The translations under genes and the position numbers were made by a program. From IMG/VR virus record IMGVR_UViG_3300031873_001030: a DNA stretch of 64,000 nt. One strand, given 5' to 3'. The stretch comes from a virus (lineage: Duplodnaviria > Heunggongvirae > Uroviricota > Caudoviricetes). The notes beneath the pieces are model-generated. The model was not told the origin of the DNA. It did no database searches and saw only the letters and a program-made list of their open reading frames with translations. This document shows positions 41,746 to 61,979 of this stretch, piece by piece (within the stretch, counting starts at the first letter, position 1; each line of letters begins with the position of its first letter).

Positions 41746-41763
41746 AATAAAGAGGTAATGTAA

Positions 41764-43328: not shown

Positions 43329-44138
43329 AATTTATCATAGTGTTCGTTGAACTTAAGACAATCGCAGATTCTGCAACATACAGGTTGAGTCTTGTATATA
43401 CGTAGAATCATGTCCTAAACTATATGATTAAGCTTATATATTTCCAAAGCTTAATTACTAATTGTGACCAAATTACATAAAACTTTTATCCCGAAGACGG
43501 GATTTAAGAGAAATTTGTTGAATCCTATTTCACAGAGGATGAGTTTTGTATTTCCTGTTTCTTTTTACAGATTGTTGGGAGGCATCAGTATGAAGTACAA
43601 TCGTGATATGACATATATCATGATGGAAGCTGTGAATGAATGGACGATGAAGAGGGAAGGAATAAATCTTGCAGAACTTTCAAACAATGGAAGAAAAATA
43701 AAAATAGGAGGTAGATTGTAAATGGGCGGTGAATCGATAGAAGATAAGATTGCAGGTACGATACCATTAGTCATAACTACTGGAGTTGCTATGAATGTCT
43801 ATGAGAGGACTTTGGGCAGTAGCGGAAAGAAACCGAAGAAAAAGATGGTGAATAAAGTATTTGGTGCGAAGAAAATTTCTTTCGGGAATTCAAAGAAAAA
43901 TGGATTGTATGACTTGTGATGTGAGTTGAAGAAAACATGTCACATGGGGAAAAAAGACAGAGAAGGAAAAAAACTAAGAAGCAAAGGCAAAGAAAAAGGA
44001 TGAAAGAGAGGAGAGACAAAGGGAGGTAATCTATGAATGAGATTGACATCCATGAAATGAATTATTTCATCGACATGGTGTCACCAGCTTATCAAGATGA
44101 GTTGTGAAAAAAATGAGATGCGAAAACAATAGGGGTAA

Positions 44139-47100
44139 TTGCCCAATTTGGAGGGTTTTGTAATGGCAAATAGTATTTTTGGTCAGCCTCAGCCAAATCC
44201 ATTTTCACCAGGCACGACATTGCCGTCATCAAATGTAAGTGTGACGCCAAGTATGCCCATTGGTGGATTGACTGTAGGATTAGGAGGAAGTGGAAATGTT
44301 TATTATGGAGGAGCGCCTGCTGGAGGAGTTGGTCAGACTACAACAACAACTGGAGGTCCTGCGATTTATATTCCTCCACAGGAGACTGCAAAAGCAGCAG
44401 AAAAAACAATAACTCCTGCTTTGATTCCTGAAATAAAACCGCCAACTTTAAAAGTTGGTGTCGGCGGATTGGTAGAAGGTTTGGGAAAATCTGGTAATGT
44501 ATATGAAGGTGGTGTGCTTGTTGGAGGTACTACTCCATGGGGTCCTGTAGTTAAGGAAGGTGGTGTCAGTTATGTCCCAACTGGAAGGACAGCTGAAACT
44601 GGAGAGACAATTTATTCTGGAACTCAGATAAGTTCTGCAACACCTATTGGAACTTTTGTGCCTGCAAAGAGAATTGAAATAACTCCACTGATGCCAGAGA
44701 TTAGTGTACAACCAGCTACAGCTGGTGCTATAGGTCTTTCATTTCCTGCAGGTGTTTTGTCTGTAAAATCTGGTCCAGTTGATGTGAGCAAACTTTCTCC
44801 AGATGTGCAGACTGCGTTGGGAAATCTTCAAGGAAAGGTGCAGGCTGAATATCCAGGATTCAAGCTTGCAAGTTGGACTCGTGAAGGTGATGAGCTGAAA
44901 GGTGTTTTGGAACCTGTGAAGTATGTCTCACTTGGAACTGATGTTACGAAAGCGACTGCTGCCATAAAGGATTTGGGATTGAAAGAAGGTGATTATAAAT
45001 TATATACTGGAATTGGTGGGGATTATCAGCTTGTGACTGATAAGGTGTCAAGCCAGAAATACGTGAGTGGTCTTCTTTCCAGTTATTCAGTTATTCCTAT
45101 AACTGGGTATGGACAGTATAGAGGGTCTGATGAGAGGATTGCATTGAAGTTTCTTGATAAGGAAGGTTATATCAAAGATGGTGTGATAAGCAAAGATGTT
45201 CAAGTGATAGGGGATATAGGAGTAGGAGGAACTGGTGCGATGATAGTTTTAAAGGGAAGTACAAAGAGTTCTGAAGATTTGTCAAAGACTTATTTTTCTT
45301 CCTTGACTGAAGTGCAGAAGGAAGATACTGCGATGGCAAGAGGAGAGTTGCAGATTGCTCAGGAAAAGGAACTTTTGAGACAACCTGGTATGAGTGTTGA
45401 AAAGGGAGCTGCTTGGTGGAATTTGAATGTTGGTCCTTATATGCTTTCTCCAAAGGACCCTCTTGGTCTGAGGAGTGCTTACATAGGAGTTGAAGGTTTG
45501 GTAAAAGGAACTCCTGTCAGTGTCATACAAAAGGACATAGAAGCTAGCAGGCTTTCTGCAGAACAGGAATTTCTTCAGAGAAAATATATGGGAGAGTCTT
45601 GGACTAAATCATTATGGGAAGCTCCTGCAACGCAGCCTTTGAAAGTTGCTGCTACTTGGTATGGCGGTGGTCTTTTGTTGGGAGGTGCTGCTGGAGTTCT
45701 TAAAACTGCTGAAGTAGGTGCTGGTATAGTATCAAAAGCTCCATGGCTTGCAACTACAGGAAGAGTTATTTCAACTGCTGGAAAAGTTGCGACAAGTGTT
45801 CCAGGACAAGTTGTAATTGGTTCAGGATTGTATGGTTTTACTGAAAGAGGAAATATAATGGCACTTGCAAAAGGAGGTGTTCCAAGAGACATTGTTCCTG
45901 GAATGATTTTTGACGCATCACAATTTGGATTTGCATATGGCGGTGCAGCTGCAGGTTTTCCAGTTGGTTATTCTAGAGGTGCTGGATTGGGTTATGCTTT
46001 CAAGCCTGGTGCATTGCCTCCATCTGAAACATTCGTGGCAGAAATCAGAGGGACTGGAGTATCTGGAATTCCAGGTGAATTGCAAGGATTGAAACTTGGG
46101 ACAAGGGTTGCTGGAGAAGTTCCAAAGGGTTTTGTTCCAAAAGGATTTAGTGAAGGTGTTCCTTATAGGGCGTTCTTGCAGGAGGGTGTGACAGTTACAA
46201 GAGCTGGAGAAGTTGTACCTTCTGGGACTTTGATGCCAACTATTGCAGAAATGGAACCTGCAAAACCTTTGATGCAGAGGATTGCCACTGCAATGACAAA
46301 GCCAAGCGAATTGATTCCTAAGATGCTTCCTGGAGGACCTACTGTTGAAGCTCCTTTTCTTGAATCAATCAGATATGGTGAAGAAAAGATAGCGAAAGGA
46401 GGAACTAAGGATATTTATGCTGCAGGTTATCAGCCAGGAACTACAATATGGTCAAGATTGAAGATGCCTGTTGAAGGAGCGCAGTATGGGATTGCTGAAG
46501 GTTTTAAGACTGTTACAGCTGAGAGTCCTCTTGCTTCGTTGACAGAAAAATACACTACAAGGATGGCATTGAGAGCTACTGGCGCTCCTATTGAAGCGGG
46601 AGATGTTGTTCCAGTGAAAATAATGGCAAAGACAGATTTTATTGTAAATGATGAAGGGATAGCTGCGATGTTGAAATCTGGAAAGAATCTTGCAGATATT
46701 GAAAAATTGAAAGGTGCTGATATAATACAGCGTGATATTGAATTTGCAGATAAGCCTGCTGTAAGGTACACTAGATTTATTGATAAGGAAACTGGAAAAT
46801 CTTTGGTTGTGTTGAAGCAGACTGCAGCTCCTACAATAGAGGAAGTTGTTGCTTTGGCAGAGGAAGGAAAGACTTTGATAAAACCTGAATATGTTGGAGG
46901 AAAGGTTGCAGGCTATAGTATAAGAGGTACTGAAATAGTTGGAGAGGGGAAAGAATTTGCAGGAGGAGTGCGTTATAAAAAGGGTGTTGAAGTAGTTGGT
47001 AAGGAACAAGTGACAGGAATAGCTCTTGATGATAAGACATTTAACGCATTGATGGATAAATATGGAAACAAGATATTGAGGGTTTCATCTCCGACAACTG

Positions 47101-48161
47101 CAAGAGATATAGCAGCTCTTGAGGCAAGTGCTGAAGGCGGTGTCACAAGAGGGACAAGCGAGCTTTCTGTCATCAGATACGTCTCAAGGGGACAATTTGA
47201 AGATTATCTGAAATCAAGAACTGGAGTAAGTAGTGTGAAGGGTGGTGAATATCCTCCTACTGAAGCTGGAACTTTTGGAACTGTTTCAATTGAAAGGCCT
47301 GAAGTTCCTAGACTTCCTAAGGTACCAGAAGAAAAAATAGTTCCACCTGAAGCTGGAGTTTCAAAAGGAGGTCTTATGTCTGAAGGCGAGAGAGTGATGT
47401 CAATTGCTCTTTCAGAAGAAGTTGGAAGACCAGCAGTCGGATTGGAAGAACGTCCTTTGAGATTCACTGAAAAGTATTTTGGGATGCAAACTCCATCCTT
47501 TGGAGTGACATCTGTTGAAGGTGCAGGGATAATAAGTTCTGACATAGCCATTGCTACAAAGTCTGCTGTTGGAATGCGTGAACAATTAGTTGCAGCTCCA
47601 GAGATTAGTGTTAGAACTATGTTGAAACCATCTGCAATTATGACTAGTGTAAATATTGAGGATGTGTTGCTTAAGATTTCTGAAAGTATTTTAGGCAAGT
47701 TGCAGCCAAGGATAAGTACTGATATCACTGATGTAGGAATGAGGATTGAACCGATAACTTCTCCTATTGTTACAACTAAGGTTACAACTGCTGTTGATAT
47801 AACACCTATACCTATGAATTTGATAGCTCCTATTACAACTTTTAAAGGACCAATTGTGACTGTCAGACCTCCAATAATACCTCCTGGTGGTGGGGGCGGT
47901 GGTGGAGAAGGTAAAAAACCTGAAAGAGAATATTTTGGATATTTCGGTCGTAAAAAAGCAGGAAAGAGAATTTTAAGTTCTGATTTGTTTTCTGTTGCTG
48001 TGTCTCAGGCTGCGTATGGAAAAGCCACTACTCCAAAGTTTAGTAGGAAAGAAGTTTCTGAACTTGAGAGCAGAGGTTTGATAAGAGTTCCTACAGCTGA
48101 GATATCTGGAATCCCAAGTTCTGGAGAATTATTGAAAAGATTGTTAGGAGGTAGAAAATGA
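44139..48161 (+). CDS. large Gly/Val/Thr/Pro-rich protein (1340 aa), structural or surface-associated
   Basis: Recurrent GGSGNVYYGG / GKSGNVYEGG glycine-rich repeats; C-terminal PPIIPPGGGGGGGEGKK; no TM; first gene of a coupled operon. Confidence 0.5.
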   Translation: MPNLEGFVMANSIFGQPQPNPFSPGTTLPSSNVSVTPSMPIGGLTVGLGGSGNVYYGGAPAGGVGQTTTTTGGPAIYIPPQETAKAAEKTITPALIPEIKPPTLKVGVGGLVEGLGKSGNVYEGGVLVGGTTPWGPVVKEGGVSYVPTGRTAETGETIYSGTQISSATPIGTFVPAKRIEITPLMPEISVQPATAGAIGLSFPAGVLSVKSGPVDVSKLSPDVQTALGNLQGKVQAEYPGFKLASWTREGDELKGVLEPVKYVSLGTDVTKATAAIKDLGLKEGDYKLYTGIGGDYQLVTDKVSSQKYVSGLLSSYSVIPITGYGQYRGSDERIALKFLDKEGYIKDGVISKDVQVIGDIGVGGTGAMIVLKGSTKSSEDLSKTYFSSLTEVQKEDTAMARGELQIAQEKELLRQPGMSVEKGAAWWNLNVGPYMLSPKDPLGLRSAYIGVEGLVKGTPVSVIQKDIEASRLSAEQEFLQRKYMGESWTKSLWEAPATQPLKVAATWYGGGLLLGGAAGVLKTAEVGAGIVSKAPWLATTGRVISTAGKVATSVPGQVVIGSGLYGFTERGNIMALAKGGVPRDIVPGMIFDASQFGFAYGGAAAGFPVGYSRGAGLGYAFKPGALPPSETFVAEIRGTGVSGIPGELQGLKLGTRVAGEVPKGFVPKGFSEGVPYRAFLQEGVTVTRAGEVVPSGTLMPTIAEMEPAKPLMQRIATAMTKPSELIPKMLPGGPTVEAPFLESIRYGEEKIAKGGTKDIYAAGYQPGTTIWSRLKMPVEGAQYGIAEGFKTVTAESPLASLTEKYTTRMALRATGAPIEAGDVVPVKIMAKTDFIVNDEGIAAMLKSGKNLADIEKLKGADIIQRDIEFADKPAVRYTRFIDKETGKSLVVLKQTAAPTIEEVVALAEEGKTLIKPEYVGGKVAGYSIRGTEIVGEGKEFAGGVRYKKGVEVVGKEQVTGIALDDKTFNALMDKYGNKILRVSSPTTARDIAALEASAEGGVTRGTSELSVIRYVSRGQFEDYLKSRTGVSSVKGGEYPPTEAGTFGTVSIERPEVPRLPKVPEEKIVPPEAGVSKGGLMSEGERVMSIALSEEVGRPAVGLEERPLRFTEKYFGMQTPSFGVTSVEGAGIISSDIAIATKSAVGMREQLVAAPEISVRTMLKPSAIMTSVNIEDVLLKISESILGKLQPRISTDITDVGMRIEPITSPIVTTKVTTAVDITPIPMNLIAPITTFKGPIVTVRPPIIPPGGGGGGGEGKKPEREYFGYFGRKKAGKRILSSDLFSVAVSQAAYGKATTPKFSRKEVSELESRGLIRVPTAEISGIPSSGELLKRLLGGRK

Positions 48162-48304
48162 AACTTACAAAGGAAAAGATAGCGTATTTCATCAAGGACG
48201 AGAAGAAAGCTGTGAAGGAATATCACAAGTATGGCCTGCACAATCTTGAAAAGGACGAGCGCAAGCATAAGAAATTCCTGCTTAAAAAATTAGGGGGAAA
48301 GTAA
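48158..48304 (+). CDS. 48-aa lysine-rich micro-protein, coupled on both sides (ATGA ... TAAATG)
   Basis: Start overlaps the upstream stop and its stop overlaps the downstream start; below track cutoff. Confidence 0.3.
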   Translation: MKLTKEKIAYFIKDEKKAVKEYHKYGLHNLEKDERKHKKFLLKKLGGK

Positions 48305-48928
48305 ATGCCAGAAGAAAAATGGAGGAAAAGATTAACATTTCAACCTTCTCCTGGAGCTTCTATAATGGATGCTTTTAAGATTGCAGAAGATTTGCCGCAA
48401 CTGACTACAGGAAAATTGCCATTGGGAGAAACAGAAAGAGAAATCAAGTCAAAAGAATGGTATGGGGCGACACGTCCAGAGGAATATGAGGAAAGGGAAC
48501 GGATAAAGAGAGAGGCTATGGTAAGGGAAGGAGTTAGGAGAAATCCGAAGTTGCCTGAACCTGAGATGGTTGGTGGGAAGGAAGGAATTGAAATTTTTAG
48601 TCCTGCTAAATCCTCGCTAACTTATGGTAGTCAGCCTCAAATAAGGGAAGCTGAAGATGTTCTCTCAAGGAAAGAAAAACTTAGAGCTAGGGCGCAAGTA
48701 TTGTCTGAAAAGGTTGAAGCAGAAAGTTTAAGAAGAAGAGAATTTGAAGAATGGAGAAGTTCTCCGAAAGGTGCTCCATTGAGATTTGCAGAGACTGTTG
48801 GTGCAAGATTTCTTAATCCAAGAGAGCTTCGTAGGATTCCCGCAATACCAAAAATGCCATTTGGCGGGTATAAAAAATATGGAAGGGGAATTGAAAGGAG
48901 AAAAGCTAAATTGCTTTTCAGCAGGTAA
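48305..48928 (+). CDS. charged hypothetical protein (207 aa)
   Basis: ORF track. Confidence 0.4.
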   Translation: MPEEKWRKRLTFQPSPGASIMDAFKIAEDLPQLTTGKLPLGETEREIKSKEWYGATRPEEYEERERIKREAMVREGVRRNPKLPEPEMVGGKEGIEIFSPAKSSLTYGSQPQIREAEDVLSRKEKLRARAQVLSEKVEAESLRRREFEEWRSSPKGAPLRFAETVGARFLNPRELRRIPAIPKMPFGGYKKYGRGIERRKAKLLFSR

Positions 48929-49089
48929 AATAAAAATGGGAGATTCAAGATGAAATTAGTTAAAAGGAATGGTCAGTTCTTGGAGGAATGAACTAAGATG
49001 AATATCACTAGACAATTGTGGTTAGAAAAAAATAGAGATATGATTAGTGATTATAATAAAAATTATTATCTGAAGGAGGAAAAAAAATA

Positions 49090-49320
49090 ATGAGATTAAA
49101 AAAAGTCAAAGGTCAGTTTCTCATAGTTTCCATGATTGCCACATTTATGACAGTGACGGCATTCATCGTAATCTATCCGATATTGAGCAGCCAGATAAAT
49201 TCAGCAGTTGGAGATATGGATGTTTATTCTGCAACTATGCTGAAACTGACTCCGTTCTTCATATTGGTTAGCATAATACTGACGATAGTGTTCGCATCAA
49301 TGCCTATGAGAGAAGGTTGA
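49090..49320 (+). CDS. small membrane protein (76 aa, 2 TM)
   Basis: Two hydrophobic helices; AAGGAGGA upstream. Confidence 0.35.
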   Translation: MRLKKVKGQFLIVSMIATFMTVTAFIVIYPILSSQINSAVGDMDVYSATMLKLTPFFILVSIILTIVFASMPMREG

Positions 49321-49388
49321 ACACCGATAACGGTGTTGAAGAACTTTTTCAAATTAGGAGGAACTGACATGAAAGTAAAGAGTACAAT

Positions 49389-55300: not shown

Positions 55301-58300
55301 TAGTGGTAATATTGGTGATACTTTTGAGGCAGGTAGTAGTAATCCTAATATAAATAATGGTATATATCCAAGTCTGGAAGTCTATGCATTTTATGGTATG
55401 CGAACATTTTTGTTGTGGAATTTGTCAATAATACCAACAGGTGCTACAATAGTTAGTGCTAATTTGTCTTTATATGGGTATGATATTGCACATGGTGGAC
55501 TTGGTTCAAGATTGTATAATGCATATAATACATCTACATATACTCTCAATGATTGTGGGCAGCAATGGATAGAAGGAACAAGGAACCAGTCAGCTAATGT
55601 GACCTGTAATGAATTGGTATATAACAATCAGCCATCTTTGAATATTTTACAGGATTCTATTTGGACTGGAACTACAAGTAATGTTTGGTTATCTTGGAAT
55701 GTGACAAACGCCACTATATCAACTTATTCAAATACAACCAATAAAAATATGAGCATAGTAATAAAAGAAAATACTGAAGTTGACAATATTTATTCACTTT
55801 TCTTCTCAAAAGAATATACAGGTAACATAGCATTAAGGCCACAATTGAATATAACATATGCATTGCCTTCTCCTTATATTGCTGGAAGTTTATTCAATTG
55901 GGTTAATTTCACGTGGCAGAACAATTCCATAATTGCTGGAAACATAATAGGTTGGAAGATATATTTCAATGATTCTTTAGGGCATGAAAATGTGACTGAG
56001 ACATATAACTTTACTATTGAGAGTAGCAAACCGATAATATCCCAGAATCATACTTGGCAAGGTACGACATTGGAAGATGATAATACATTTACATATTCTC
56101 CAACTTTGAATGTCAGTTTCCAGATTACTGCATGGGCTTATGATTTGAACATTCTTACTGCGACATTTGAATTTAACGGAGTCAATTATACAAATTCAAC
56201 AACAACTAGGGTCTATAATAATACAAATAATGTGTTCTGGATTAACTTCACTTCGATGAAAGCTGGCAATTATAATTTCAGGTGGTATGTCAATGATACT
56301 GTAGGTGGATGGAGCAATACAAGTCAAGTTGTATTGGCAATAGGTAAAGCTACATTGGTTGGAACAATATCCTCTCCAGATGTGTATTTTCCTGCTGACA
56401 TGTCACTGACTGGTTTGGAAAGCAATGCAGGAGATGTGGATGTTGCATATCAGACTTGTCTAGGTGATGCATGTAAACCTGGATTAGGACCAAATCTTTT
56501 TGGTTCATGTTGTGAATATCCTGCAGATACTTACACTTGCAAATTCAATACGACTGGAGCTGTCTTTGAGAATTATACTTCAAATGCCAACATAGCTACA
56601 GATTCTTGTACAATCAATAAAGGAGGACTTGTAGGAACAATAACAAGTCCAGATGTAACTTATCCAGCTGACTTATTTTTAACTGGTTCAGAGAGCAATG
56701 TAGGTGATACAGATGTCACATATCAGACTTGTGTCAGCAACATATGTAAGGCAGGTTTGGGTGCGAATAGTTTTGATATTGGAGGAGGAACATATAATTG
56801 CATATTCAATACTACAGGAGCTACTTTTGCAAATTGGACGGCAAGTGCAAGCATGCAGACTGACAGTTGCACTGTAAACAAAGGAATATTGACAGGAAGT
56901 TCTTCATCACCAGCAGTGACTTATCCTGCTGGATTGACAGCGACAGGAACTGAAACTAACACAGTGGATACTGATGTCGCATACAGGGAATATTGTGAAT
57001 TAGGAACAAAAGGAGTTTTGATGGGTTCTGCCTTAGGTGGAAATCCTTCAGGAACTGTTGTGCTTGATGTAGGGACATGGACATGCAAGCTTAACACCAC
57101 AGGCGGACCATTTGCCAATTGGACTGCATCCGCAAGCATAGGAACATCTGTTGGAATAGTAAGCATAGGAACATTGACTGGGACTATATCATCTCCAGAT
57201 GTCACTTATCCGACTGATATGACAATCACTGGAATTGAGACTAATACTGGTGATAGTGATGTTGCTTATAGGACTTGTTTAAGTGGCAGTGGTGAATGCA
57301 AGTCAGGAAAGGGACCAAATACTTTTGATTATCCTCCTGGAACTTATAGTTGCGTATTTAACACTACAGGTGCGGCATTTGCAAATTGGACGTCATCATC
57401 AAATATTGCTACGGATGTGTGTGTCATAAACAATGGAACGCTTACAATACAATTGTCAACACCAACTCCTATAACTTATGAAGCTGTAGCTGGTATCGAA
57501 GGATGGATTACTAATAACGCTGGAGATGGTGGATGTACTTATATCTTATTGAGGAATGGCACTCAAATCAATACCAGTATTCATGTCACTGATAACACAA
57601 TACTAGGTGCTGGATATTACAACTATACTTATTATACAGCAGGTTGTGCAAATTATACTATCAATAGGCTTGCTGATGTGCCATTGACTGTGAATCAGAA
57701 AAATGCATTTGTAAGAGTCTATCCATGGACAGGTCCTATAACATATGAGACAAGTGTATTTCAATATTGTACATCCTTATCTACATTGGTAAATTGTACG
57801 ATGTACAGGAATGGAACTACAGTTACGAATGGAACGAATATAGTATTAGGAGTTGGAGCTTATCTTTTCAAGGCTAACATATCAGATGCTGCCAATTATA
57901 CAAATTATGATGACTTGAATATTCTGACTGTCGATAAAAAACAGTTGGCAGCAAATTTATGGATTAATGGTCACTTGAATCAGAATACAACTGTGGTTCA
58001 AACATTCCCATACATTCCTAAATATGCGACTTCAAATGCGACGAATATCAATGGATTGAGTGGTTCTCTATATAGAGATGATGCACCTGTTGCAGGTGAT
58101 ACTGATACAATTCCACCTGTGCAAGGAACATATAAATACAAGGCCAATGCGACTGGAAATGTAAATTATACAAGCGATTCTGTAGGGCAGACATTTTATG
58201 CAAGTGTCATCTCAGCTCACAACATAACAATCTCAAGTCCAGTAAATGGAAGTTCGATTGGGATATTGCCAAATACAAATAAGAGTGTCCAAATAAATTA

Positions 58301-60647
58301 TACGGTTGGAAATCCAGTTTCAATTGTTTGCGCATATGCGATAGATGCTGGAATCAATACATCATATCGTGTAAATATGCTGACATGTGAGAATGTGACT
58401 TCTATTGGCATAAGTCAGATTGGGAGCCATAACTTGACAGTAGCTGTTTGGGATACGTTCTTCACTACATATAATGAAAGCAGTGTCTTCTTTGACATAG
58501 ATTTTGTCAATCAGTGGATTGTGACTAATGGCGGTGGTGTTGTGCTGACTGATGGAAATGTATCATTTTCAAATGGAACGTATAGCTTTAACTTGTCTAC
58601 AACTAATGGAACGTTTTCGACAAATACATCTCTGCTTCCGAAAGGTAATGTGTCAGCTACATTCAAAGATTTTGTGACGTATGCAGATAAAACTGTATAC
58701 TACAATGTGACTAATGAGACTCAAATTTCTACAACTATTGTTCTTTCATTTTCTGGAGTCACTATAAGGGTATTTGGAGAAGATTCGCTTTCTCCGATAA
58801 ATTGGTATAAAGTGACGATGACAAATGGGACTGCAAGCACTGGAGCGTATACTACGCAATTGACAGTTGGAAAGGGAAATCCTGGGGGTTACTTGATAAA
58901 TTTCCTTGATGATGATATCAATACTTATGAGAGCAATCTGAATGCCTTGTTCACTTATGAATTTGGATTTACAAATGCGACATTTGCATTGACATATAAT
59001 ATATCTGATGCTGTTGGAAATAGCACCAATCTTACATTGAAGATTTATAACAATACAGTAGGTGCATGGGATACTGTCTTCAATCTGACAAATTCTGGAA
59101 ATAGTGGAGGAATCACGACAAGATATTTCACGATAGACAATAGTCCGTCGATATATGCAAATTATGGGGACATATTCACAAGCTGTCTTGGAACATATTG
59201 CCCATTGTTCATGATGAACATGACACCAGCTGGTTCTGCAGTGATAAAAGTTTATGAGATGAGATTGACAGAACCATATACTTATGATACAAACGGATTT
59301 GCACAGATTAATTTCACAAAGTTCCCGATTACTAGCGGAACTAGCAGATTCATGTTTCAATCTCCTGTATATGCTTCATCATTGAATAATTATGGACTGA
59401 GGACTTATTTCATAAATCCATCTGCGATGGCTACGATAAATTTGGATGCATATCTTAGTAACTTATGTTATATACAGCAGTTCCAAACTGTCCAATCTAG
59501 TTTGGCTACTACAAATCCTATTCCAGTTCCTGATGTGTTGCTTACATTGATGAAGGTATTTGGAACTGAATTGAAGATAGTCGACCAGCAGAAGAGCGAT
59601 TATTCTGGCATTGCAAGATTGTGTGTGGAAGCTGGTTATCCATATACTATGACTTTTGTGAAGAGTGGATATCAGACACAGACTGCTTATGATGAAGTGT
59701 TTTCAAACGCTGGTCCTTATTATGTCAACATGTTTACAGTGAACGCAAGCGATTACTTTTCAAACCCATATTCTACAAACATTTCGATAACTCCTGCAGA
59801 TAATTATATACACAATTCTACAACAATCTATACATGTGCTGTACTGGCTCCATATAATCCATGGGGACCTTCTGGAAATGTATTACTCTCATCTTTCCTT
59901 AGAATATATCATTCTTATGAGTTTGCTGCATATCCTCCAAACATATCTTCAGCGTTATATCCACCAAGTTCTGGATTCTGTAATGGTACTGCTCCATTTT
60001 GCACTAACTATTATACAAATACGACTTGTGCAGCAGTTGTAGGATGTAATTGGGTAAATTGGATTGTTACTGGTGCTTGTAATGGACCACCAACTTGCCT
60101 TAGTCATCTGAAAGAATCAACTTGTTTGAATGAGACTGGATGTGATTGGACACGTTTTGGACCATTTGGAATATCAACATTGCATAATTCGACATTGGTA
60201 TCTAATCAGACTTCAACAAATCCGCTTGGAGCTATATTCACTTATGGATTGAATGAGTCTGGAACTTACAACATAACTTGTGGAGGATATTTTCGTGTAG
60301 TGAATGATACTTCAATCTTCAATGCGACTGGGAGTATTATCGAAATTTCTAAGCAGAGGGTAATATGGGTAGAACCTACTGGAGGTGGAATAGCTGGTGC
60401 TGGAAAAGACTTGATAGGAAACATAAGCGAATCTGCGTTATATTTTGTAGTGCTGATATTGGATATGATTATAACAAGTTTCTTTGTCCGTCACTTTGGT
60501 ATGAAAAGTGCGTTTATATTCCTTGTAGTATGGGCTATGGCAATGGTGATATTAGGAGGTTGGGGTTTCAATGCACAGACTGGAGTATTCTCAGTTGGAT
60601 TTTTGTTATGGATAGCACTCATGTTCTATCCATATAGGAGGGAATAA
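49389..60647 (+). CDS. giant surface protein (3752 aa) with DUF285/BspA-like repeats, internal duplications, dense N-X-S/T sequons and a C-terminal multi-TM anchor (exact start uncertain)
   Basis: N-terminal signal-anchor ITSLIFALALIGTFGYLFI; about 14 tandem 26-aa repeats FN.NIS.WNT..VT.M..MF..A (DNA about 51790-52930); duplicated blocks TYTNFG...LFWW and QNHTWQGTTLEDDNTF...; C-terminal three-TM tail. Confidence 0.7.
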   Translation: MHWKHLLTHKSLFLEGIRISIRLSKATVKITSLIFALALIGTFGYLFISNVSNKVSGDSYNDINMSDIVNNTIVTASSYSNYEYEVTKNVYKTYFQDNINSGEAVRFEKDGYYFIYDLSGGKIQWAEQDGNPTKTKSIGAILSSPISLAGDKVYYNDAFAYTNVSYLILNDMLKENFILSSSLPIDDTYLYLEYTGEIKHSDSLMIYANDKNQTEKNFVTQGKIEFKDVNGTTIFFLPAPTVTDSNGKSEYGFYDIKISSGKIAFNLRVNSTFLKNAAYPVYIDPTIRTFNDTLSSKNLTFIWNQNQTLYISIPKNAIVTNAYLNLSGFPAQNNVNFFDPLDNGNYISSTNAIVSGGQITLNRQNNTGESFTSPPCSEIQYIGGTVPGTYATAQSFRASGVYLSYIKVKFFNQVTATLSIRSSLAGANLVSTSVASGDERYYEWYITNPPALTVGNTYYIVLTWSSDGSNYGGLRQACYNYLYPNGTYYAYLLSSWNTEPNGAYYDHAFETKYWEYDTSNYVNSVAIDTTSYYLNATLTKSDNIPAGTSITYYLSSNGGASWEQVTSGINHTFSNIGQDIRWRGVLTTNSDRSSTPTLYNMTVNASQGYWPMNPYLDISGDGDVEWNYTGTFNQSNNRTANLSSEINTYLSTCTPTSGNCTMPLVFHSDTAGIIQVSDINITYNVPFISVWNTSKAGTSNSTQIELPLYNGGTYAFTVDWGDGTTDYITSYLNDNHTYATAGVYVVNIAGTINGFRFNNGGDRLKIINITQWGDLNVGNSGNYFHGCANLNSNATDNLNLAGTTDLSNMFYSATSFNGSISGWDTSGVTSMYTMFYGASNFNSNISSWNTGNVINMEYMFYTASSFNQNISNWNTGKVTSMLSMFHGATSFNQNISNWDVSKVTTMSDMFHSATSFNGNISGWNVVNVTTMYDMFHSATSFNQSMSSWNTGNVATMFSMFYGATAFNGNISGWNTGNVNNMVAMFYNTPFNQNIGNWNVSSVTTTYQMFYSASIFNQNISSWNTSKVITMSEMFRGASAFNQNISNWDTSKVTTMTNMFYDATSFNGNVSGWNIGNVTTIDYMFRGATSFNQSMNNWNTSKVTTMYAMFYGASNFNGNISNWNTSNVIAMDYMFYNTAFNQNISSWNTGKVASMAGMFQSAASFNQNLSSWNVSSVTNAANMFLSVTLSTPNYDSLLVGWGSRVEKNATVFSGGNSKYSAAGLAGRNNLTGIYNNWTITDGGPVDIINPTYTNFGSDYTNNTAVNGGSILTYYAKWIDNIQLDKCVNSSKINTSGSWTNGTWASAGTGNWTNYTVKFPAEVGSNYTVKIYCNDTSGYMNVTGTLFWWAESFVITQNHTWQGTTLEDDNTFAYSPTLNVSFQMTALNFDNGTFEFDGANYTISTNPKVYNNTNGVYWINFTNKKPGNYNFKWYASTISGIWKNTSQVTLIVTKAYPAFSNSVTTPINYLTASDYASNGNNLGCDDCTYYTKRNGTQICVGACSDTTVLGASAYNYTIYTAGGENYTSGQSELDLTVNKIILSGTINSPDVTYPTGMSITGSESNTGDGDVAYQTCLDNVCTLGKGPNTFNYGANTYTCKFNTTGATFENYTASASIAIDSCTINKGTSLSLSINSNVTSPITYPIPSSINGSGCVFGAGYGTDIVCTLYRGNSTWSGTGNDTAILGAGIYAYNYSTPGGTNWTATSASNYTLIVNRGSLSLSINSNVTSPITYPTPSSVNGSGCAGSDVVCTLYRGNSSWSGTGNDSAVLSAGVYAYNYSTPGGTNYSAASAVNYTLVVLGNTPPTYSYFGATVPNNTVVVGGSVVTYYAKWSDDVQLDKCANSSRVNNSAWVNGTWVSPGTGNWTNYTVAFPSERGSNLTIRIYCNDSVGQMVETGTLFWIIDYYPYSNSTGQASNSIPSGTNNTLFSKLFAGGGGTTLSWAWLSTNETGAWKNYTITNYTYYSVILNESNSGNIGDTFEAGSSNPNINNGIYPSLEVYAFYGMRTFLLWNLSIIPTGATIVSANLSLYGYDIAHGGLGSRLYNAYNTSTYTLNDCGQQWIEGTRNQSANVTCNELVYNNQPSLNILQDSIWTGTTSNVWLSWNVTNATISTYSNTTNKNMSIVIKENTEVDNIYSLFFSKEYTGNIALRPQLNITYALPSPYIAGSLFNWVNFTWQNNSIIAGNIIGWKIYFNDSLGHENVTETYNFTIESSKPIISQNHTWQGTTLEDDNTFTYSPTLNVSFQITAWAYDLNILTATFEFNGVNYTNSTTTRVYNNTNNVFWINFTSMKAGNYNFRWYVNDTVGGWSNTSQVVLAIGKATLVGTISSPDVYFPADMSLTGLESNAGDVDVAYQTCLGDACKPGLGPNLFGSCCEYPADTYTCKFNTTGAVFENYTSNANIATDSCTINKGGLVGTITSPDVTYPADLFLTGSESNVGDTDVTYQTCVSNICKAGLGANSFDIGGGTYNCIFNTTGATFANWTASASMQTDSCTVNKGILTGSSSSPAVTYPAGLTATGTETNTVDTDVAYREYCELGTKGVLMGSALGGNPSGTVVLDVGTWTCKLNTTGGPFANWTASASIGTSVGIVSIGTLTGTISSPDVTYPTDMTITGIETNTGDSDVAYRTCLSGSGECKSGKGPNTFDYPPGTYSCVFNTTGAAFANWTSSSNIATDVCVINNGTLTIQLSTPTPITYEAVAGIEGWITNNAGDGGCTYILLRNGTQINTSIHVTDNTILGAGYYNYTYYTAGCANYTINRLADVPLTVNQKNAFVRVYPWTGPITYETSVFQYCTSLSTLVNCTMYRNGTTVTNGTNIVLGVGAYLFKANISDAANYTNYDDLNILTVDKKQLAANLWINGHLNQNTTVVQTFPYIPKYATSNATNINGLSGSLYRDDAPVAGDTDTIPPVQGTYKYKANATGNVNYTSDSVGQTFYASVISAHNITISSPVNGSSIGILPNTNKSVQINYTVGNPVSIVCAYAIDAGINTSYRVNMLTCENVTSIGISQIGSHNLTVAVWDTFFTTYNESSVFFDIDFVNQWIVTNGGGVVLTDGNVSFSNGTYSFNLSTTNGTFSTNTSLLPKGNVSATFKDFVTYADKTVYYNVTNETQISTTIVLSFSGVTIRVFGEDSLSPINWYKVTMTNGTASTGAYTTQLTVGKGNPGGYLINFLDDDINTYESNLNALFTYEFGFTNATFALTYNISDAVGNSTNLTLKIYNNTVGAWDTVFNLTNSGNSGGITTRYFTIDNSPSIYANYGDIFTSCLGTYCPLFMMNMTPAGSAVIKVYEMRLTEPYTYDTNGFAQINFTKFPITSGTSRFMFQSPVYASSLNNYGLRTYFINPSAMATINLDAYLSNLCYIQQFQTVQSSLATTNPIPVPDVLLTLMKVFGTELKIVDQQKSDYSGIARLCVEAGYPYTMTFVKSGYQTQTAYDEVFSNAGPYYVNMFTVNASDYFSNPYSTNISITPADNYIHNSTTIYTCAVLAPYNPWGPSGNVLLSSFLRIYHSYEFAAYPPNISSALYPPSSGFCNGTAPFCTNYYTNTTCAAVVGCNWVNWIVTGACNGPPTCLSHLKESTCLNETGCDWTRFGPFGISTLHNSTLVSNQTSTNPLGAIFTYGLNESGTYNITCGGYFRVVNDTSIFNATGSIIEISKQRVIWVEPTGGGIAGAGKDLIGNISESALYFVVLILDMIITSFFVRHFGMKSAFIFLVVWAMAMVILGGWGFNAQTGVFSVGFLLWIALMFYPYRRE

Positions 60648-60649
60648 TC

Positions 60650-61099
60650 ATGAAAATGATATATAGGAAAGCAGCATCGTTGACTTTATTATTATCCATA
60701 TGGGCTGGAATAATAGGAGTTGGTGTATTGGCATATCCAAGCGGATATAAATCTACTTGGGACCAGATACAGACAGTATATTCAAATCCAGTTGGTGCAA
60801 TTCCAGTGATAATTAAGAATGCATTTTCAGCAGGGAATCTTGGTATGTTTGGAGGATTGTTAGTTGCTGGAGCAGTATCTGCAGTGATATTTACAACTTC
60901 TGTCTTGGGTGGTGGATTTTCCCAGCTGTTTGCAATTCCACTATTGATTATATTTGCAGTTGTCAATATGTTTGTCTTGCCAACGACTCAGATATTGTCA
61001 GAAAGTGGTGCGCCTTATGCAGTGCAGGTAATCTATACGCTTTTCATAGGGACACTTACTATTTTGACGGCATTGACATTCACTTCAGGTAGACCATAA
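60650..61099 (+). CDS. polytopic membrane protein (149 aa)
   Basis: 4-5 hydrophobic helices; ATG 3 nt after the giant gene stop. Confidence 0.45.
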   Translation: MKMIYRKAASLTLLLSIWAGIIGVGVLAYPSGYKSTWDQIQTVYSNPVGAIPVIIKNAFSAGNLGMFGGLLVAGAVSAVIFTTSVLGGGFSQLFAIPLLIIFAVVNMFVLPTTQILSESGAPYAVQVIYTLFIGTLTILTALTFTSGRP

Positions 61100-61149
61100 G
61101 AGGCAAATGATATGAAAAAAGAAGATACAGAGAAGGAGGGAATGAGAAA

Positions 61150-61425
61150 ATGGTAGTATCTTTTCCATTCTTATGGGATGAATTGATTCAACAATTGTTA
61201 CTTAGTGTGACAGGTAGCCCATTACTTGTTGGTCTAATCGGAATATTTTTCATCGGAGTGTTAGGATTGGCAATGAGATTGACATTAGAGATACAGCTAA
61301 TTGCGATGTTCTTTTTTATAATGCTAATTGCTGTCGCATATATACCATGGATAAGTGGAGTTGTGCTAATTGTAGCTGGAATATTCGTTGGAATGTTTTT
61401 CTTTTACACGTTTTTCAGAGGATAA
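61150..61425 (+). CDS. small membrane protein (91 aa)
   Basis: Three hydrophobic helices. Confidence 0.4.
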   Translation: MVVSFPFLWDELIQQLLLSVTGSPLLVGLIGIFFIGVLGLAMRLTLEIQLIAMFFFIMLIAVAYIPWISGVVLIVAGIFVGMFFFYTFFRG

Positions 61426-61615
61426 TATGGAATTTGAAAAAGAATTGCAGTGCCCAAGATGCAGGACAAATTCACTGATAGATATAGGTGATTGGGATGA
61501 TGAGAATCTTTTCAAGTGCGTGTCTTGCAGATATTGGTTTCTGGAATCTTACATAAGAGGAAAAAATAATGATGCGTTGTGTCTGCATGAAGTGCCGATA
61601 GGAGATTTAAAATGA
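61388..61615 (+). CDS. zinc-ribbon protein (75 aa)
   Basis: CPRC...CVSC. Confidence 0.35.
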   Translation: MECFSFTRFSEDNMEFEKELQCPRCRTNSLIDIGDWDDENLFKCVSCRYWFLESYIRGKNNDALCLHEVPIGDLK

Positions 61616-61830
61616 AATATCTGTACAACAAAGTTTCAGAAAAAATAGATGAGCTGATAAGGAAGAGCCCGAAGAGGGAGTTGGATATGGAATTATTGAA
61701 GAGGAGTCTTCCAAATAAGATAAGGCTTACAAGATTTGACGTATTGAGCATTGTGAGAGAAATGGAAAAAGATGGTTGTTTCGTTATCGATGGCAATAAA
61801 CTCAGAAAGGAGGTGAAAACCGATGGTTGA
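61612..61830 (+). CDS. hypothetical protein (72 aa)
   Basis: ATGA coupling to the upstream gene. Confidence 0.3.
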   Translation: MKYLYNKVSEKIDELIRKSPKRELDMELLKRSLPNKIRLTRFDVLSIVREMEKDGCFVIDGNKLRKEVKTDG

Positions 61831-61979
61831 ATACATTGTGAAAATATATAAAAGGAAAAGAGACGGAACTCTGACTGCTAATCTTGTGAGGCATTCTTAT
61901 AAGAAAGGAAAGGCTATAAAGATGGCTAAAGTCAATATTTGATGAATTAAGATATAAAATAGTGGAGGTGAAAAAGAAA

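What the first reader, a model, noticed from the sequence alone, without database searches (positions are those of the whole stretch)
44139..61830. Nine-gene coupled operon built around a 3752-aa DUF285/BspA-like surface protein
Genes from 44139 to 61830 are all on the + strand. Stops overlap or abut starts at five junctions (ATGA at 48158, TAAATG at 48305, a 3-nt gap at 60650, a 38-nt overlap at 61388 and ATGA at 61612), with 36-160 nt gaps at the remaining three. The operon begins with a 1340-aa Gly/Val-rich protein that has no TM segment. A strong AGGAGG site, 7 nt later, opens a 27-aa ORF (49369-49452) that overlaps the annotated start of the giant gene in another frame, so the giant gene's true start or translational control is unclear. 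The giant protein has about 14 tandem 26-aa FN.NIS.WNT..VT.M..MF repeats (DUF285-like, as in Mycoplasma/BspA surface proteins). It has at least three internally duplicated 90-100-aa blocks, on the order of 300 N-X-S/T sequons, and a C-terminal three-TM tail. It is followed by small polytopic membrane proteins that could be a dedicated export or anchoring apparatus.
Basis: partly seen in the sequence, partly recalled or inferred. Interest (0 to 1): 0.6.

Follow-up and report, generated by a model that had tools for sequence, protein, structure and literature searches.

The report
Archaeal spindle-virus capsid and adhesin module
This gene cluster is most likely the particle-building module of a large, uncatalogued virus-like element of archaea: a small capsid-protein gene sits directly upstream of a 3,752-residue, sugar-site-rich attachment protein whose DUF285 repeat region is an exchangeable binding head.

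Summary
The + strand gene array, the 3,752-aa ORF, the DUF285 repeats (Pfam E 2.8e-138; 15 repeats of 25 aa), the internal duplications, the three C-terminal hydrophobic helices and the AGGAGG-led 27-aa uORF are all present. Corrections: 185 N-X-S/T sequons, not ~300 (still twice expectation). The first gene starts at ATG 44163 (1,332 aa). The 38-nt overlap is an ORF-calling artefact. Only two of the four downstream genes are polytopic. The array extends beyond both stated ends.

The decisive gene was the overlooked 76-aa, two-helix protein at 49090-49320. It is related to the major capsid protein of archaeal spindle-shaped viruses (SSV19 VP1, PDB 7XDI; His1 VP21). The same gene order recurs in six further distinct loci (eight fetched contigs): a large Cys-free protein (969-1,332 aa), then the capsid-like gene, a giant protein, a 4-helix protein and, in all but one, a 3-helix protein. 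In the giants only the C-terminal ~700 aa is conserved. The N-terminal heads differ: DUF285 here, Laminin_G_3 or DUF2341 elsewhere.

I read the cluster as a virion morphogenesis and host-attachment module, not a cellular surface-protein operon with its own export apparatus. No relative was found in IMG/VR, GenBank phage records or GTDB representative genomes. The host is unknown.

The parts
43539..43721 (+). 60-aa Arc/ribbon-helix-helix-like protein. First gene of the + strand array, after a 210-nt divergent intergenic region.
   Evidence: phrog_11411 Arc-like repressor, E 5.5e-4. Homologues sit at the head of the module in L008, L014 and L018 at 50-60% identity. Gene call.
43722..43919 (+). 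65-aa basic protein, abutting the previous gene, with AGGAGG 10 nt upstream.
   Evidence: Gene call; SD site. No family match.
44163..48161 (+). 1,332-aa Gly/Val/Ala-rich protein with no Cys, no hydrophobic segment above threshold and only one sequon. Only a poly-Gly tract plus the C-terminal ~75 aa are conserved. Function unknown; inferred to be an internal virion or assembly protein.
   Evidence: Start and gene call. Composition. The C-terminal 40-115 aa are 37-55% identical to the 1,254-, 1,150-, 1,077- and 969-aa proteins at the same position in L008, L014, L018 and L016. No other homologue, Pfam, PHROG or phage match.
48158..48304 (+). 48-aa Lys-rich protein, ATGA overlap with the previous gene.
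48305..48928 (+). 207-aa Glu/Arg/Lys-rich protein. Positional counterpart of charged proteins of 109-765 aa in other loci.
   Evidence: similar composition; only L009 and L014 counterparts share detectable similarity with each other. No family match.
49090..49320 (+). 76-aa alpha-hairpin protein related to the major capsid protein of spindle-shaped archaeal viruses ('A-type' MCP-like gene). The most conserved gene of the module.
   Evidence: phrog_11172 virion structural protein, E 0.001. hhalign against SSV1 VP1/VP3 + His1 VP21: probability 92.9%, E 3.8e-7, with controls at ~1%. tblastn against 50,697 phage records hits only VP1 of three SSVs. PDB profile search gives 7xdi_A VP1 as the only hit with E below 0.01: E 1.7e-6, or 0.0024 with A-type sequences only. 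AF2 gives two helices, pLDDT 86.9, and Foldseek rank 1 is 7xdi_A. 50-92% identical homologues lie next to giants in other loci.
49322..49349 (+). 7-bp hairpin (AACACCG/CGGTGTT) followed by T5, directly after the capsid-like gene. Candidate partial terminator or attenuator.
   Evidence: Fold -12.3 kcal/mol, z -2.2. It is the only intergenic run of 5 or more T on the + strand between 43300 and 62400. Function is inferred.
49369..49452 (+). 27-aa upstream ORF with a strong SD (AGGAGG, 7-nt spacer). It overlaps ATG 49389 out of frame. Its stop (49450-49452) lies 2 nt before an in-frame TTG (49455, codon 23 of the giant).
   Evidence: Sequence. Every other intergenic AGGAGG + ATG in this region is a called gene start. 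Homologous giants have a short signal peptide directly after an SD and no uORF.
49389..60647 (+). 3,752-aa giant protein: N-terminal signal/anchor, variable binding region, repeated beta-rich stalk, conserved C-terminal domain and three terminal hydrophobic helices. Inferred host-attachment (tail-spike/adhesin) protein.
51690..52958 (+). DUF285/BspA-type repeat region (residues ~768-1190; 15 clear 25-aa repeats at 816-1183). This is the exchangeable head.
   Evidence: Pfam PF03382 E 2.8e-138. Repeat map; TRF array 51805-52903. 37-46% identical stretches in 114 phage records. Absent from the homologous giants, which carry Laminin_G_3/DUF2341.
53133..57758 (+). Internally duplicated blocks and ~90-aa sequon- and Cys-containing repeats (the stalk).
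   Evidence: Segment-versus-whole BLASTP. Similar repeats in P0003.
58497..60644 (+). Conserved C-terminal domain (residues ~3037-3752), ending in three hydrophobic helices (~3681-3745, nt 60429-60623).
   Evidence: 33-43% identity to P0002, P0003 and the L009, L010 and L018 giants. Only 22 representatives at E<=1e-3 among 1.84 billion proteins; among the long hits (1,215-4,512 aa) the match lies at the C-terminal end, and the shorter hits look like fragments. Helices from hydropathy and the AF2 secondary structure.
60650..61099 (+). 149-aa protein with four hydrophobic helices, starting 2 nt after the giant's stop. Conserved partner.
   Evidence: 35-47% identity to the gene at the same position in L008, L009, L010, L016 and L018. 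No Pfam, PHROG or PDB match.
61150..61425 (+). 91-aa protein with three hydrophobic helices. Conserved partner in most loci.
   Evidence: 29-47% identity at the same position in L008, L009, L010 and L018. An 85-aa gene holds that position in L016 but gave no BLASTP match. No family match.
61427..61615 (+). 62-aa protein with CxxC...CxxC motifs (probable Zn ribbon); soluble.
   Evidence: Gene call; sequence. Two sub-threshold Pfam matches: TackOD1 E 6.6e-4 (19.7 bits, cut-off 32) and Zn_ribbon_IS1595 E 0.0023 (18.3 bits, cut-off 25.4). Homologue in L009.
61612..61942 (+). 72-aa (61612-61830) and 39-aa (61823-61942) small basic proteins, conserved after the membrane partners. Possibly DNA-binding.
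   Evidence: 33-63% and 54-74% identity in L008, L009, L010 and L018. No family match.
62203..64000 (+). 48-aa conserved gene (62203-62349), then the start of a second giant gene (62346 onward; 1,736 aa in the full contig). That protein has a lipobox-like N-terminus and 9.7 sequons per 100 aa. A third protein of at least 1,460 aa with DUF2341 follows.
36768..42583 (+). Upstream glycan-related gene block: GT1 glycosyltransferase, sugar C-methyltransferase, GT-C type PMT_2 membrane glycosyltransferase and two SAM methyltransferases. Inferred to decorate the sequon-rich proteins.
   Evidence: Pfam and precomputed Pfam. The link to the giant is an inference.

Best explanation
Window 43539-64000 is the structural (morphogenesis and host-attachment) arm of a large double-stranded-DNA virus, or virus-like mobile element, of an uncultivated archaeon. 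It is related to the spindle-shaped viruses (Fuselloviridae, Halspiviridae and relatives).

Proposed roles:
- The 76-aa alpha-hairpin protein (49090-49320) is a capsid-lattice protein.
- The 3,752-aa protein is the host-recognition spike. A signal peptide takes it across the membrane and its ectodomain is N-glycosylated at many of its 185 sequons.
- The DUF285 leucine-rich-repeat-like block is the exchangeable receptor-binding head. The duplicated beta-rich repeats form a stalk.
- The conserved C-terminal domain with three hydrophobic helices plugs the protein into the hydrophobic capsid-protein lattice. This parallels the three-helix bundle of SSV19 VP4, on which the VP1 strands start.
- The conserved 4-helix (149 aa) and 3-helix (91 aa) proteins are further hydrophobic tail or base components.
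- The large Cys-free, sequon-poor 1,332-aa protein and the small basic proteins are internal or cytoplasmic assembly or DNA-binding components.
- The hairpin+T5 after the capsid gene, and the SD-led uORF overlapping the SD-less giant start, would keep spike synthesis low relative to capsid protein.

Shown: the homologies, the synteny, the domain swap and the sequon enrichment. Inferred: virion location, glycosylation, the stoichiometry control and the roles of the unannotated proteins.
For: (1) Capsid homology of the 76-aa gene.
- PHROG 11172 'virion structural protein': E 0.001 for the window protein, 0.0012 and 0.0032 for two homologues, all on the same profile region.
- hhalign against SSV1 VP1/VP3 + His1 VP21: 92.9%, E 3.8e-7. 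Two other SSV1 two-helix proteins score ~1%.
- tblastn against all phage records returns only VP1 of Sulfolobus spindle-shaped viruses.
- Profile searches of 177,635 PDB sequences return SSV19 VP1 (7xdi_A) as the only hit with E below 0.01: E 1.7e-6, 1e-7 for the paralogue family, and 0.0024 for A-type sequences alone.
- A paralogue family in sister loci matches Pfam His1_capsid, one member above the curated cut-off (28.9 bits against 27). It is linked to the 76-aa family at E 1e-11 to 1e-15.
- AF2 gives a two-helix hairpin, pLDDT 86.9. Foldseek rank 1 of 350,542 chains is 7xdi_A, TM 0.53-0.57.

(2) Conserved module in six further distinct loci, L008, L009, L010, L014, L016/L017 and L018/L019, with variable giant heads and a conserved C-terminus. 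Three of these are cut at one end or lack one partner.

(3) The architecture matches known spindle-virus spikes. SSV1 VP4 has a signal peptide, sequons and a hydrophobic multi-helix C-terminus, and is followed by overlapping small polytopic genes B78 and C166. SSV19 VP4 has N-glycans at NXT and a C-terminal three-helix bundle on which VP1 stacks (PMC9351363). An adjacent MCP + adhesin pair is the recognised morphogenetic module of spindle viruses (bioRxiv 10.1101/2021.07.29.453957).

(4) Mobile-element gene content, with no housekeeping genes found. The window holds a short XPF nuclease, PD-(D/E)XK, GIY-YIG, a ParB-like protein, a sub-threshold MCM-like P-loop/wHTH protein and five tRNAs. Sister loci carry four DNA methyltransferases or QueC/D/E.

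(5) No relative of the giant's C-terminal domain or of the capsid-like gene was found in 185,579 GTDB species genomes.

(6) DUF285 blocks occur in 114 phage genome records, which shows the repeat is common in viruses.
Against: - The window's own 76-aa protein is below Pfam cut-offs (VP1_VP3 E 0.58).
- With A-type sequences alone the support is moderate: PDB E 0.0024, hhalign 57%.
- The Foldseek E-value is not significant (1.7), as expected for a helical hairpin.
- The His1-capsid-like 'B-type' paralogue present in L008, L009, L010 and L018 was not found in the window or the 7 kb after it.
- The giant, the 149-aa and the 91-aa proteins show no sequence similarity to SSV1 VP4/C166/B78 or to SSV19 tail proteins. 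Their roles rest on analogy.
- The AF2 model of the C-terminal domain was unusable (pLDDT 39).
- No morphogenesis ATPase or integrase was identified. No virions, host or CRISPR link are known.
- About 9 kb upstream and 12 kb downstream of what I could read in the 92-kb contig were not inspected.
- IMG/VR holds no relative. That fits either an unrecognised virus lineage or a non-viral element.
Confidence: 0.7

Rival explanations
1. A non-viral mobile element, such as a plasmid or a vesicle-forming plasmid-like element. It would use capsid-like hydrophobic hairpin proteins and a giant adhesin for cell-cell contact or vesicle-mediated transfer rather than building true virions.
For: No packaging or morphogenesis ATPase, integrase or other virus hallmark was recognised apart from the capsid-like gene. 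A ParB-like protein and a 2-kb repeat-rich ORF-free region suggest plasmid-style maintenance. IMG/VR holds no relative.
Against: The literature read here identifies spindle-shaped viruses by these hydrophobic alpha-helical capsid proteins (PMC9894754). The capsid gene + adhesin adjacency and the N-glycan-rich spike with a three-helix tail match known virions. tRNA clusters, DNA-modification genes and nucleases fit large viruses.
Confidence: 0.15
2. One reading: a chromosomal operon of a cell (for example a small-genome archaeon or a wall-less bacterium). It would encode a giant BspA/DUF285 surface adhesin together with a dedicated export or anchoring apparatus made of the small membrane proteins.
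For: The DUF285 repeats are real. The small membrane proteins do co-occur with the giant gene. Two related contigs sit in NCBI genome assemblies, GCA_053495555.1 and GCA_964352345.1.
Against: DUF285 is not conserved among the homologous giants. The partners match no secretion, sortase or anchoring family. Two of the four 'partners' are soluble. A capsid-protein homologue sits directly upstream. No housekeeping gene was found among the window ORFs scanned or in any sister locus. No relative was found in 185,579 species genomes. The short XPF, the sequon enrichment and the spindle-type capsid gene point to archaea, not Mollicutes.
Confidence: 0.1
3. A tail module of a head-tailed virus, with the 1,332-aa Gly-rich protein as tape measure and the giant as tail fibre.
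For: The size and low complexity of the 1,332-aa protein, its position upstream of a huge fibre-like gene, and DUF285 blocks in many tailed phages.
Against: The large ORFs tested gave no HK97 capsid, portal, terminase, tail-tube or baseplate match in Pfam or PHROGs. The 1,332-aa protein has no phage match. The giant ends in three hydrophobic helices and is flanked by hydrophobic hairpin proteins, which is not a tailed-phage arrangement.
Confidence: 0.03

Closest known systems
Fuselloviridae structural genes (SSV1 VP1/VP3 capsid proteins; VP4 = C792 with B78 and C166; SSV19 VP1, VP4, B210, C131; PDB 7XDI)
   Same: A ~75-aa two-helix hydrophobic capsid protein, detectably homologous. The largest structural gene encodes a signal-peptide-bearing, sequon-rich spike ending in hydrophobic helices, and is followed by overlapping genes for small polytopic proteins. 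In SSV19 the VP4 three-helix bundle seeds the VP1 lattice and VP4 is N-glycosylated. Small basic and Zn-ribbon/HTH-type proteins lie nearby.
   Different: No sequence similarity between the giant, 149-aa or 91-aa proteins and VP4, C166, B78 or the SSV19 tail proteins. The spike is 3-5 times larger (3,752 aa against 792-~1,160). Contigs are 66-106 kb against ~15 kb. In SSV1 the capsid genes and VP4 are in separate transcripts; here they are adjacent. A conserved large Cys-free protein (969-1,332 aa) has no fusellovirus counterpart that I could detect.
Halspiviridae (His1: VP21 capsid protein, VP26/VP27 anchored proteins, GT1 glycosyltransferase)
   Same: His1_capsid (PF25665) matches the B-type paralogues of sister loci. 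The capsid gene is followed by small membrane proteins and by large proteins with a signal peptide and a C-terminal anchor. CxxC mini-proteins and a virus-encoded GT1 are present.
   Different: The B-type gene was not found in this window. His1 is 14.5 kb with a protein-primed polymerase, and its anchored proteins are about 280-500 aa.
Metagenomic spindle-shaped virus groups (Wyrdviruses of Asgard archaea; Itzamnaviridae and Tepeuviridae of ANME-1; Huangdivirus of Bathyarchaeia)
   Same: They were identified by the same hydrophobic capsid-protein signature. They carry one or two capsid paralogues, an MCP + receptor-binding-adhesin module, many Zn-finger/HTH mini-proteins, a large genome split into structural and enzymatic arms (up to 72.6 kb stated), Que genes, and sequons with a viral glycosyltransferase.
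   Different: No sequence match to any record in the GenBank phage and archaeal-virus collection for the giant's C-terminal domain, the 1,332-aa protein or the B-type capsid gene. I could not confirm whether those published genomes are in that collection. Giant adhesins with interchangeable DUF285/LamG heads are not mentioned in the passages I read.
DUF285 / BspA-type leucine-rich-repeat surface proteins (Mycoplasma, Listeria, jumbo phages, cyanophages)
   Same: 15 canonical 25-aa repeats, Pfam E 2.8e-138. 37-46% identity to repeat blocks in 114 phage records.
   Different: Here the repeat block is about 11% of a protein whose conserved identity lies elsewhere, and it is absent from the orthologous giants. 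The context is an archaeal spindle-virus-like module.

Membership tests
DUF285 (PF03382) / BspA-type repeat proteins | Pfam PF03382 match above the curated cut-off | tested here: met
   453.5 bits against a cut-off of 25, E 2.8e-138, four stretches.
DUF285 (PF03382) / BspA-type repeat proteins | Tandem ~25-26-residue repeats with the FN.NIS.WN...V..M..MF signature | tested here: met
   15 repeats at residues 816-1183, spacing 23-26 aa and mostly 25. TRF array of 75/150-nt periods.
Spindle-shaped-virus major capsid protein (SSV VP1/VP3 PF06281; His1_capsid PF25665) | Small (~70-100 aa) protein made of two hydrophobic alpha-helices joined by a short loop | tested here: met
   76 aa. Hydropathy segments at 10-28 and 53-71. 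AF2 helices at 2-40 and 45-70, pLDDT 86.9. SSV19 VP1 has helices 15-44 and 54-83.
Spindle-shaped-virus major capsid protein (SSV VP1/VP3 PF06281; His1_capsid PF25665) | Pfam family match above the curated cut-off | tested here: not met
   Window protein: VP1_VP3 10.6 bits against a cut-off of 25 (E 0.58), and no His1_capsid hit. Only a paralogue family in sister loci reaches it (P0061, 28.9 bits against 27).
Spindle-shaped-virus major capsid protein (SSV VP1/VP3 PF06281; His1_capsid PF25665) | Detectable homology to experimentally verified capsid proteins by profile methods | tested here: met
   PDB profile search: 7xdi_A VP1 is the only hit with E below 0.01, at E 1.7e-6 (A3) and 0.0024 (A-type only). 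hhalign 92.9% (A3) and 57% (A8). PHROG 11172 E 0.001. Controls ~1%.
Spindle-shaped-virus major capsid protein (SSV VP1/VP3 PF06281; His1_capsid PF25665) | Forms the shell of spindle-shaped virions | not testable with these tools
   Needs particle isolation, proteomics or electron microscopy.
Fusellovirus VP4-type tail spike / terminal-fibre adhesin | Sequence or profile homology to VP4 (SSV1 C792, SSV19 VP4) | tested here: not met
   hhalign probability 0.4% against SSV1 C792. No PDB hit, 7XDI VP4 included.
Fusellovirus VP4-type tail spike / terminal-fibre adhesin | Architecture: signal peptide, N-glycan sequon-rich beta-rich ectodomain, C-terminal hydrophobic three-helix module, encoded next to small hydrophobic structural genes | tested here: met
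   compared with the SSV19 description. This is resemblance of design, not proof of homology.
Spindle-shaped virus genome (morphogenetic module as used in metagenomic classification) | MCP gene(s) together with a large receptor-binding adhesin gene, conserved across related contigs | tested here: met
   The MCP-like gene and the giant are seen together in six distinct loci including the window (directly adjacent in five; small genes intervene in L016). L010 is cut before the MCP position. Criterion as stated.
Spindle-shaped virus genome (morphogenetic module as used in metagenomic classification) | AAA+ morphogenesis ATPase (SSV1 B251-like / pI-like) | tested here: inconclusive
   The only P-loop protein seen (17743-18933) has sub-threshold MCM/helicase-like matches plus a wHTH, and shares only the Walker A motif with SSV1 B251. 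About 20 kb of the contig was not inspected.
Head-tailed virus tail module (tape measure + fibre) | HK97-fold capsid, portal, terminase or tail proteins on the same element | tested here: not met
   The ORFs scanned gave no such Pfam or PHROG match.
Dedicated secretion/anchoring operon for a surface protein | Partner proteins belonging to a known export, sortase or anchoring family | tested here: not met
   The 149-, 91-, 62- and 72-aa proteins have no match above any Pfam cut-off, and the three tested (149, 91, 72 aa) have no PHROG match; the 149- and 91-aa families have no PDB match. Two of the four lack membrane segments.

The most novel reading that the evidence does not exclude
These contigs (66-106 kb, from several sediment and other metagenomes) represent an uncatalogued family-level or higher lineage of very large spindle-shaped archaeal viruses. 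Their host-recognition spike is a 1,400-4,500-aa modular glycoprotein that swaps whole binding heads between relatives (DUF285 LRR-type, Laminin-G lectin-type, DUF2341). The element carries its own glycan-building genes, including a GT-C transferase, to decorate the spike. At 3,752 aa here and 4,512 aa in a sister locus, these would be far larger than the SSV1 and SSV19 spikes (792 and about 1,160 aa). A uORF and terminator arrangement would set the spike-to-capsid ratio.
Probability: 0.45. Interest if true: 0.65.

Novelty: new variant of a known kind. Interest (0 to 1): 0.55.

Why it matters
If correct, a lineage of large archaeal virus-like elements has escaped standard viral catalogues. No relative was found in IMG/VR, and the GenBank phage collection holds only weak matches of the capsid-like gene to fusellovirus VP1. 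The lineage can be recognised only through a 76-aa capsid-like gene.

It gives a natural example of head-swapping in an archaeal virus receptor-binding protein: LRR-type against lectin-type heads on a conserved capsid-embedding base. That is directly useful for predicting host range and for finding the still unknown host.

It extends DUF285/BspA repeats, known from Mollicutes, Firmicutes and jumbo phages, to an archaeal virus spike.

It offers a testable case of virus-encoded glycosylation and of uORF- or terminator-based control of capsid-to-spike stoichiometry.

For annotation practice, it shows that a 'giant surface protein operon' can be a virion module, and that the informative gene may be the smallest one.

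Tried and rejected
- **Tape-measure / tailed-phage reading of the 1,332-aa protein.** No Pfam, PHROG, tblastn or IMG/VR support.
- **Homologue search for the 1,332-aa protein.** Only itself was found by the word-indexed search. Relatives were recognised only by position and a conserved C-terminal ~75 aa.
- **Exact look-up with the TTG 44139 start.** It failed, which showed that the recorded start is ATG 44163.
- **Structure of the giant's conserved C-terminal domain.** AF2 with 3 sequences gave pLDDT 39, so no fold search was attempted. The sequence search of the PDB was empty.
- **Sequence links of the giant, 149-aa and 91-aa proteins to SSV1 VP4/C166/B78 and SSV19 tail proteins.** None found.
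- **ATPase comparison with SSV1 B251.** Only the Walker A motif matches.
- **Host or taxon identification.** The sample accessions appear in no paper. Both GTDB genome scans found nothing. The organisms behind the NCBI assemblies could not be looked up.
- **First profile job.** It failed on profile length and was rerun with a shorter alignment.
- **Look-up of the 1,736-aa downstream protein.** The upstream 9 kb were also not retrieved.
- **Sigma-70 promoter / intrinsic terminator scanner.** Not used, because the element appears archaeal. I looked only for oligo-T runs and hairpins.
- **uORF as a relic of an ancestral signal peptide.** This rests on 'MK...hydrophobic...W', as in the L009 and L008 giants. 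It is too short to test and is kept only as a suggestion.

Full report
**Source and gene calls.** The window is part of a ~92-kb metagenomic contig (ENA ERZ27247974 k141_1406800, 91,950 bp; a 92,011-bp version is also on record).
- The first large gene is recorded from ATG 44163 (1,332 aa, GGAGG 8 nt upstream), not TTG 44139.
- The '75-aa' gene is recorded from ATG 61427 (62 aa), so the 38-nt overlap disappears.
- The other junctions are as described: ATGA at 48158 and 61612, TAA|ATG at 48304/48305, a 2-nt gap at 60650, and gaps of 161, 68 and 50 nt.
- Tight coupling is not specific to this cluster. 11 of 13 junctions among the 14 + strand genes called upstream of it also overlap.
- The array extends upstream to 43539 and downstream beyond the window end.

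**The giant protein.**
- Pfam gives DUF285 at E 2.8e-138.
- There are 15 repeats of 25 aa at residues 816-1183.
- Internal duplications are extensive.
- There are 185 N-X-S/T sequons (118 NXT, 67 NXS), against 89 +/- 8 in shuffles. That is a real twofold enrichment, but not ~300.
- A hydrophobic N-terminal segment and three C-terminal hydrophobic helices are present.
- The other proteins of the cluster have almost no sequons, and the 1,332-aa protein has no Cys and 1% Asn. This suggests they stay on the cytoplasmic or internal side while the giant is exposed.

**What is conserved.** A search with the last 903 residues found two relatives. A profile search of 1.84 billion representatives found only 22 at E<=1e-3; among the long hits (1,215-4,512 aa) the match lies at the C-terminal end. 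Fetching the contexts gave six further distinct loci (eight contigs) with the same gene order:
- a small RHH-like gene,
- a large Cys-free protein (969-1,332 aa) sharing only a poly-Gly tract and ~75 C-terminal residues,
- a charged protein,
- a 72-82-aa two-helix protein,
- the giant,
- a 143-166-aa four-helix protein,
- a 93-97-aa three-helix protein (an 85-aa gene sits at this position in L016 but gave no BLASTP match),
- small Zn-ribbon-like and basic proteins,
- often a second ~75-aa two-helix protein,
- and then another giant.

L010 and L014 are cut at one end, so not every locus shows every gene. The heads of the giants differ. This window has DUF285, L009 has five Laminin_G_3 domains plus DUF2341, and the others have DUF2341 and/or Laminin_G_3. 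The giants tested are all sequon-enriched 1.6- to 2.2-fold.

**The key gene.** The 76-aa protein at 49090-49320 is the most conserved member (50-92% identity; 51 family members found). Independent lines tie it to the major capsid protein of spindle-shaped archaeal viruses:
- PHROG 11172, E 0.001.
- hhalign 92.9% against SSV1 VP1/VP3 + His1 VP21, with ~1% for two control hairpin proteins.
- tblastn hits only to SSV VP1.
- SSV19 VP1 (7xdi_A) as the only hit with E below 0.01 in PDB profile searches.
- An AF2 alpha-hairpin whose best Foldseek match is 7xdi_A.
- A paralogue family in sister loci that matches Pfam His1_capsid and is linked to the 76-aa family at 1e-11 to 1e-15.

On its own the window protein is below Pfam cut-offs, and the A-type-only profile gives moderate scores. 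I therefore treat homology as probable, not certain.

**Comparison with known viruses.**
- SSV1 VP4 (C792) has a signal peptide, sequons and a hydrophobic multi-helix C-terminus. It is followed by overlapping genes for the small polytopic proteins B78 and C166.
- In the SSV19 virion, VP4 is the N-glycosylated tail spike. Its C-terminal three-helix bundle sits in a ring on which each VP1 strand starts. The adaptor B210 also has a three-helix bundle and the nozzle C131 is a four-helix bundle (PMC9351363).
- His1 shows capsid gene, then small membrane proteins, then large anchored proteins, plus a GT1.
- MCP + adhesin is the accepted morphogenetic module of metagenomic spindle viruses, and genomes of 70 kb and more with structural and enzymatic arms are described.

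The present giant, 149-aa and 91-aa proteins have no sequence similarity to the fusellovirus proteins. The functional assignment of these three is by analogy.

**Context.** Among the window ORFs scanned there are no housekeeping genes. Instead there are a short XPF (ERCC4+HhH) nuclease, PD-(D/E)XK, GIY-YIG, a ParB-like protein, a protein with sub-threshold MCM-like P-loop and wHTH matches, several methyltransferases, five tRNAs and a glycan-gene block directly upstream. The glycan block comprises GT1, a sugar C-methyltransferase and a GT-C PMT_2. Sister loci carry four DNA methyltransferases or QueC/D/E. No relative of the giant's C-terminal domain or of either capsid family was found in IMG/VR. 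None was found for the C-terminal domain or the A-type capsid family in 185,579 GTDB species genomes. GenBank phage records gave only the weak VP1 hits. The archaeal assignment rests on three things: the spindle-type capsid gene, which the literature read here treats as archaea-specific, the short XPF, and the sequon enrichment. The host is unknown.

**Start of the giant and expression control.** AGGAGG + 7 nt + ATG 49369 is very likely a working initiation site, because every other intergenic AGGAGG + ATG nearby is a gene start. The annotated ATG 49389 has no SD and lies inside this uORF. The uORF stop (49450-49452) is 2 nt before an in-frame TTG (49455), which would give MSKATVK + a hydrophobic core, a textbook signal peptide. 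Homologous giants start with a short signal peptide right after an SD, 3-18 nt behind the capsid gene in the four loci where the two are adjacent. The window's arrangement therefore looks derived, perhaps a by-product of the head swap. Immediately after the capsid gene lies a 7-bp hairpin plus T5, the only intergenic oligo-T in the array. I infer that both features lower spike output relative to capsid protein. Which start is used cannot be decided computationally.

**Verdict.** The main uncertainty is whether true virions are made, and what the non-homologous partners do.

Noticed in passing
window 42939-43088 (inside the - strand ORF 42573-43328): A near-perfect 48-bp (16-codon) tandem repeat, 3.1 copies. 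The ENA version of the contig has exactly one copy fewer, so copy number varies between assemblies or populations.
   Followed up: partly
window ~6000-7960: A 2-kb stretch with no ORF of 70 aa or more, higher G+C (40%) and negative AT skew. It is packed with degenerate GGT-periodic short repeats and has two ~75-nt palindromic elements (6149-6225 and 6947-7022, 91-94% identical). It lies downstream of a ParB-like gene (4011-4895). Possibly an origin or partition region. No Rfam match.
   Followed up: partly
window 24527-25538 (- strand): A cluster of tRNA genes: Tyr, Pro, His and Asn by ARAGORN, and a fifth tRNA at 25468-25538 found only by Rfam (37.5 bits). A short XPF-type nuclease gene (ERCC4+HhH, 25714-26358) is next to it.
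   Followed up: no
window 36768-42583: A glycan-related gene block just upstream of the structural array: GT1, an NDP-sugar C-methyltransferase (Methyltransf_13/23/14), a 537-aa GT-C PMT_2-like membrane transferase and two SAM methyltransferases. It may glycosylate the sequon-rich giants.
   Followed up: partly
window 62346-64000 and beyond (L001 11697-20450): A second giant gene (1,736 aa) with a lipobox-like N-terminus (LIFFSGC). It has 168 sequons (9.7 per 100 aa; shuffles give 60) in YNSTYDTWAYNQTTPAIDW-type repeats. A third protein of at least 1,460 aa with DUF2341 follows.
   Followed up: partly
window 48998-49090: An uncalled 30-aa ORF with GGAGG 11 nt upstream. Its stop overlaps the start of the capsid-like gene (TAATG). 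It would fill most of the '161-nt gap' and is not conserved in sister loci.
   Followed up: no
window 45224-45242: An in-frame internal ATG (45240) of the 1,332-aa gene lies 10 nt after AGGAGG and could give a 973-aa N-terminally shortened product. It may equally be a chance by-product of Gly/Glu codons.
   Followed up: no
giant residues 613-683 (window 51225-51437) against L014 giant residues 2378-2448: A 71-aa stretch is 63% identical but sits at very different positions in the two giants, which indicates domain shuffling between relatives.
   Followed up: no
window 7964-8632: A 222-aa ORF with one N-terminal hydrophobic segment and a Ser/Asn/Cys-rich repetitive body (C..N..N-type periodicity). 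No Pfam match.
   Followed up: no
window 61962-62210: A Lys-rich, low-complexity repeat region (23-31-nt periods) at the position where sister loci carry the His1-capsid-like B-type gene. It may mark loss or replacement of that gene here.
   Followed up: partly
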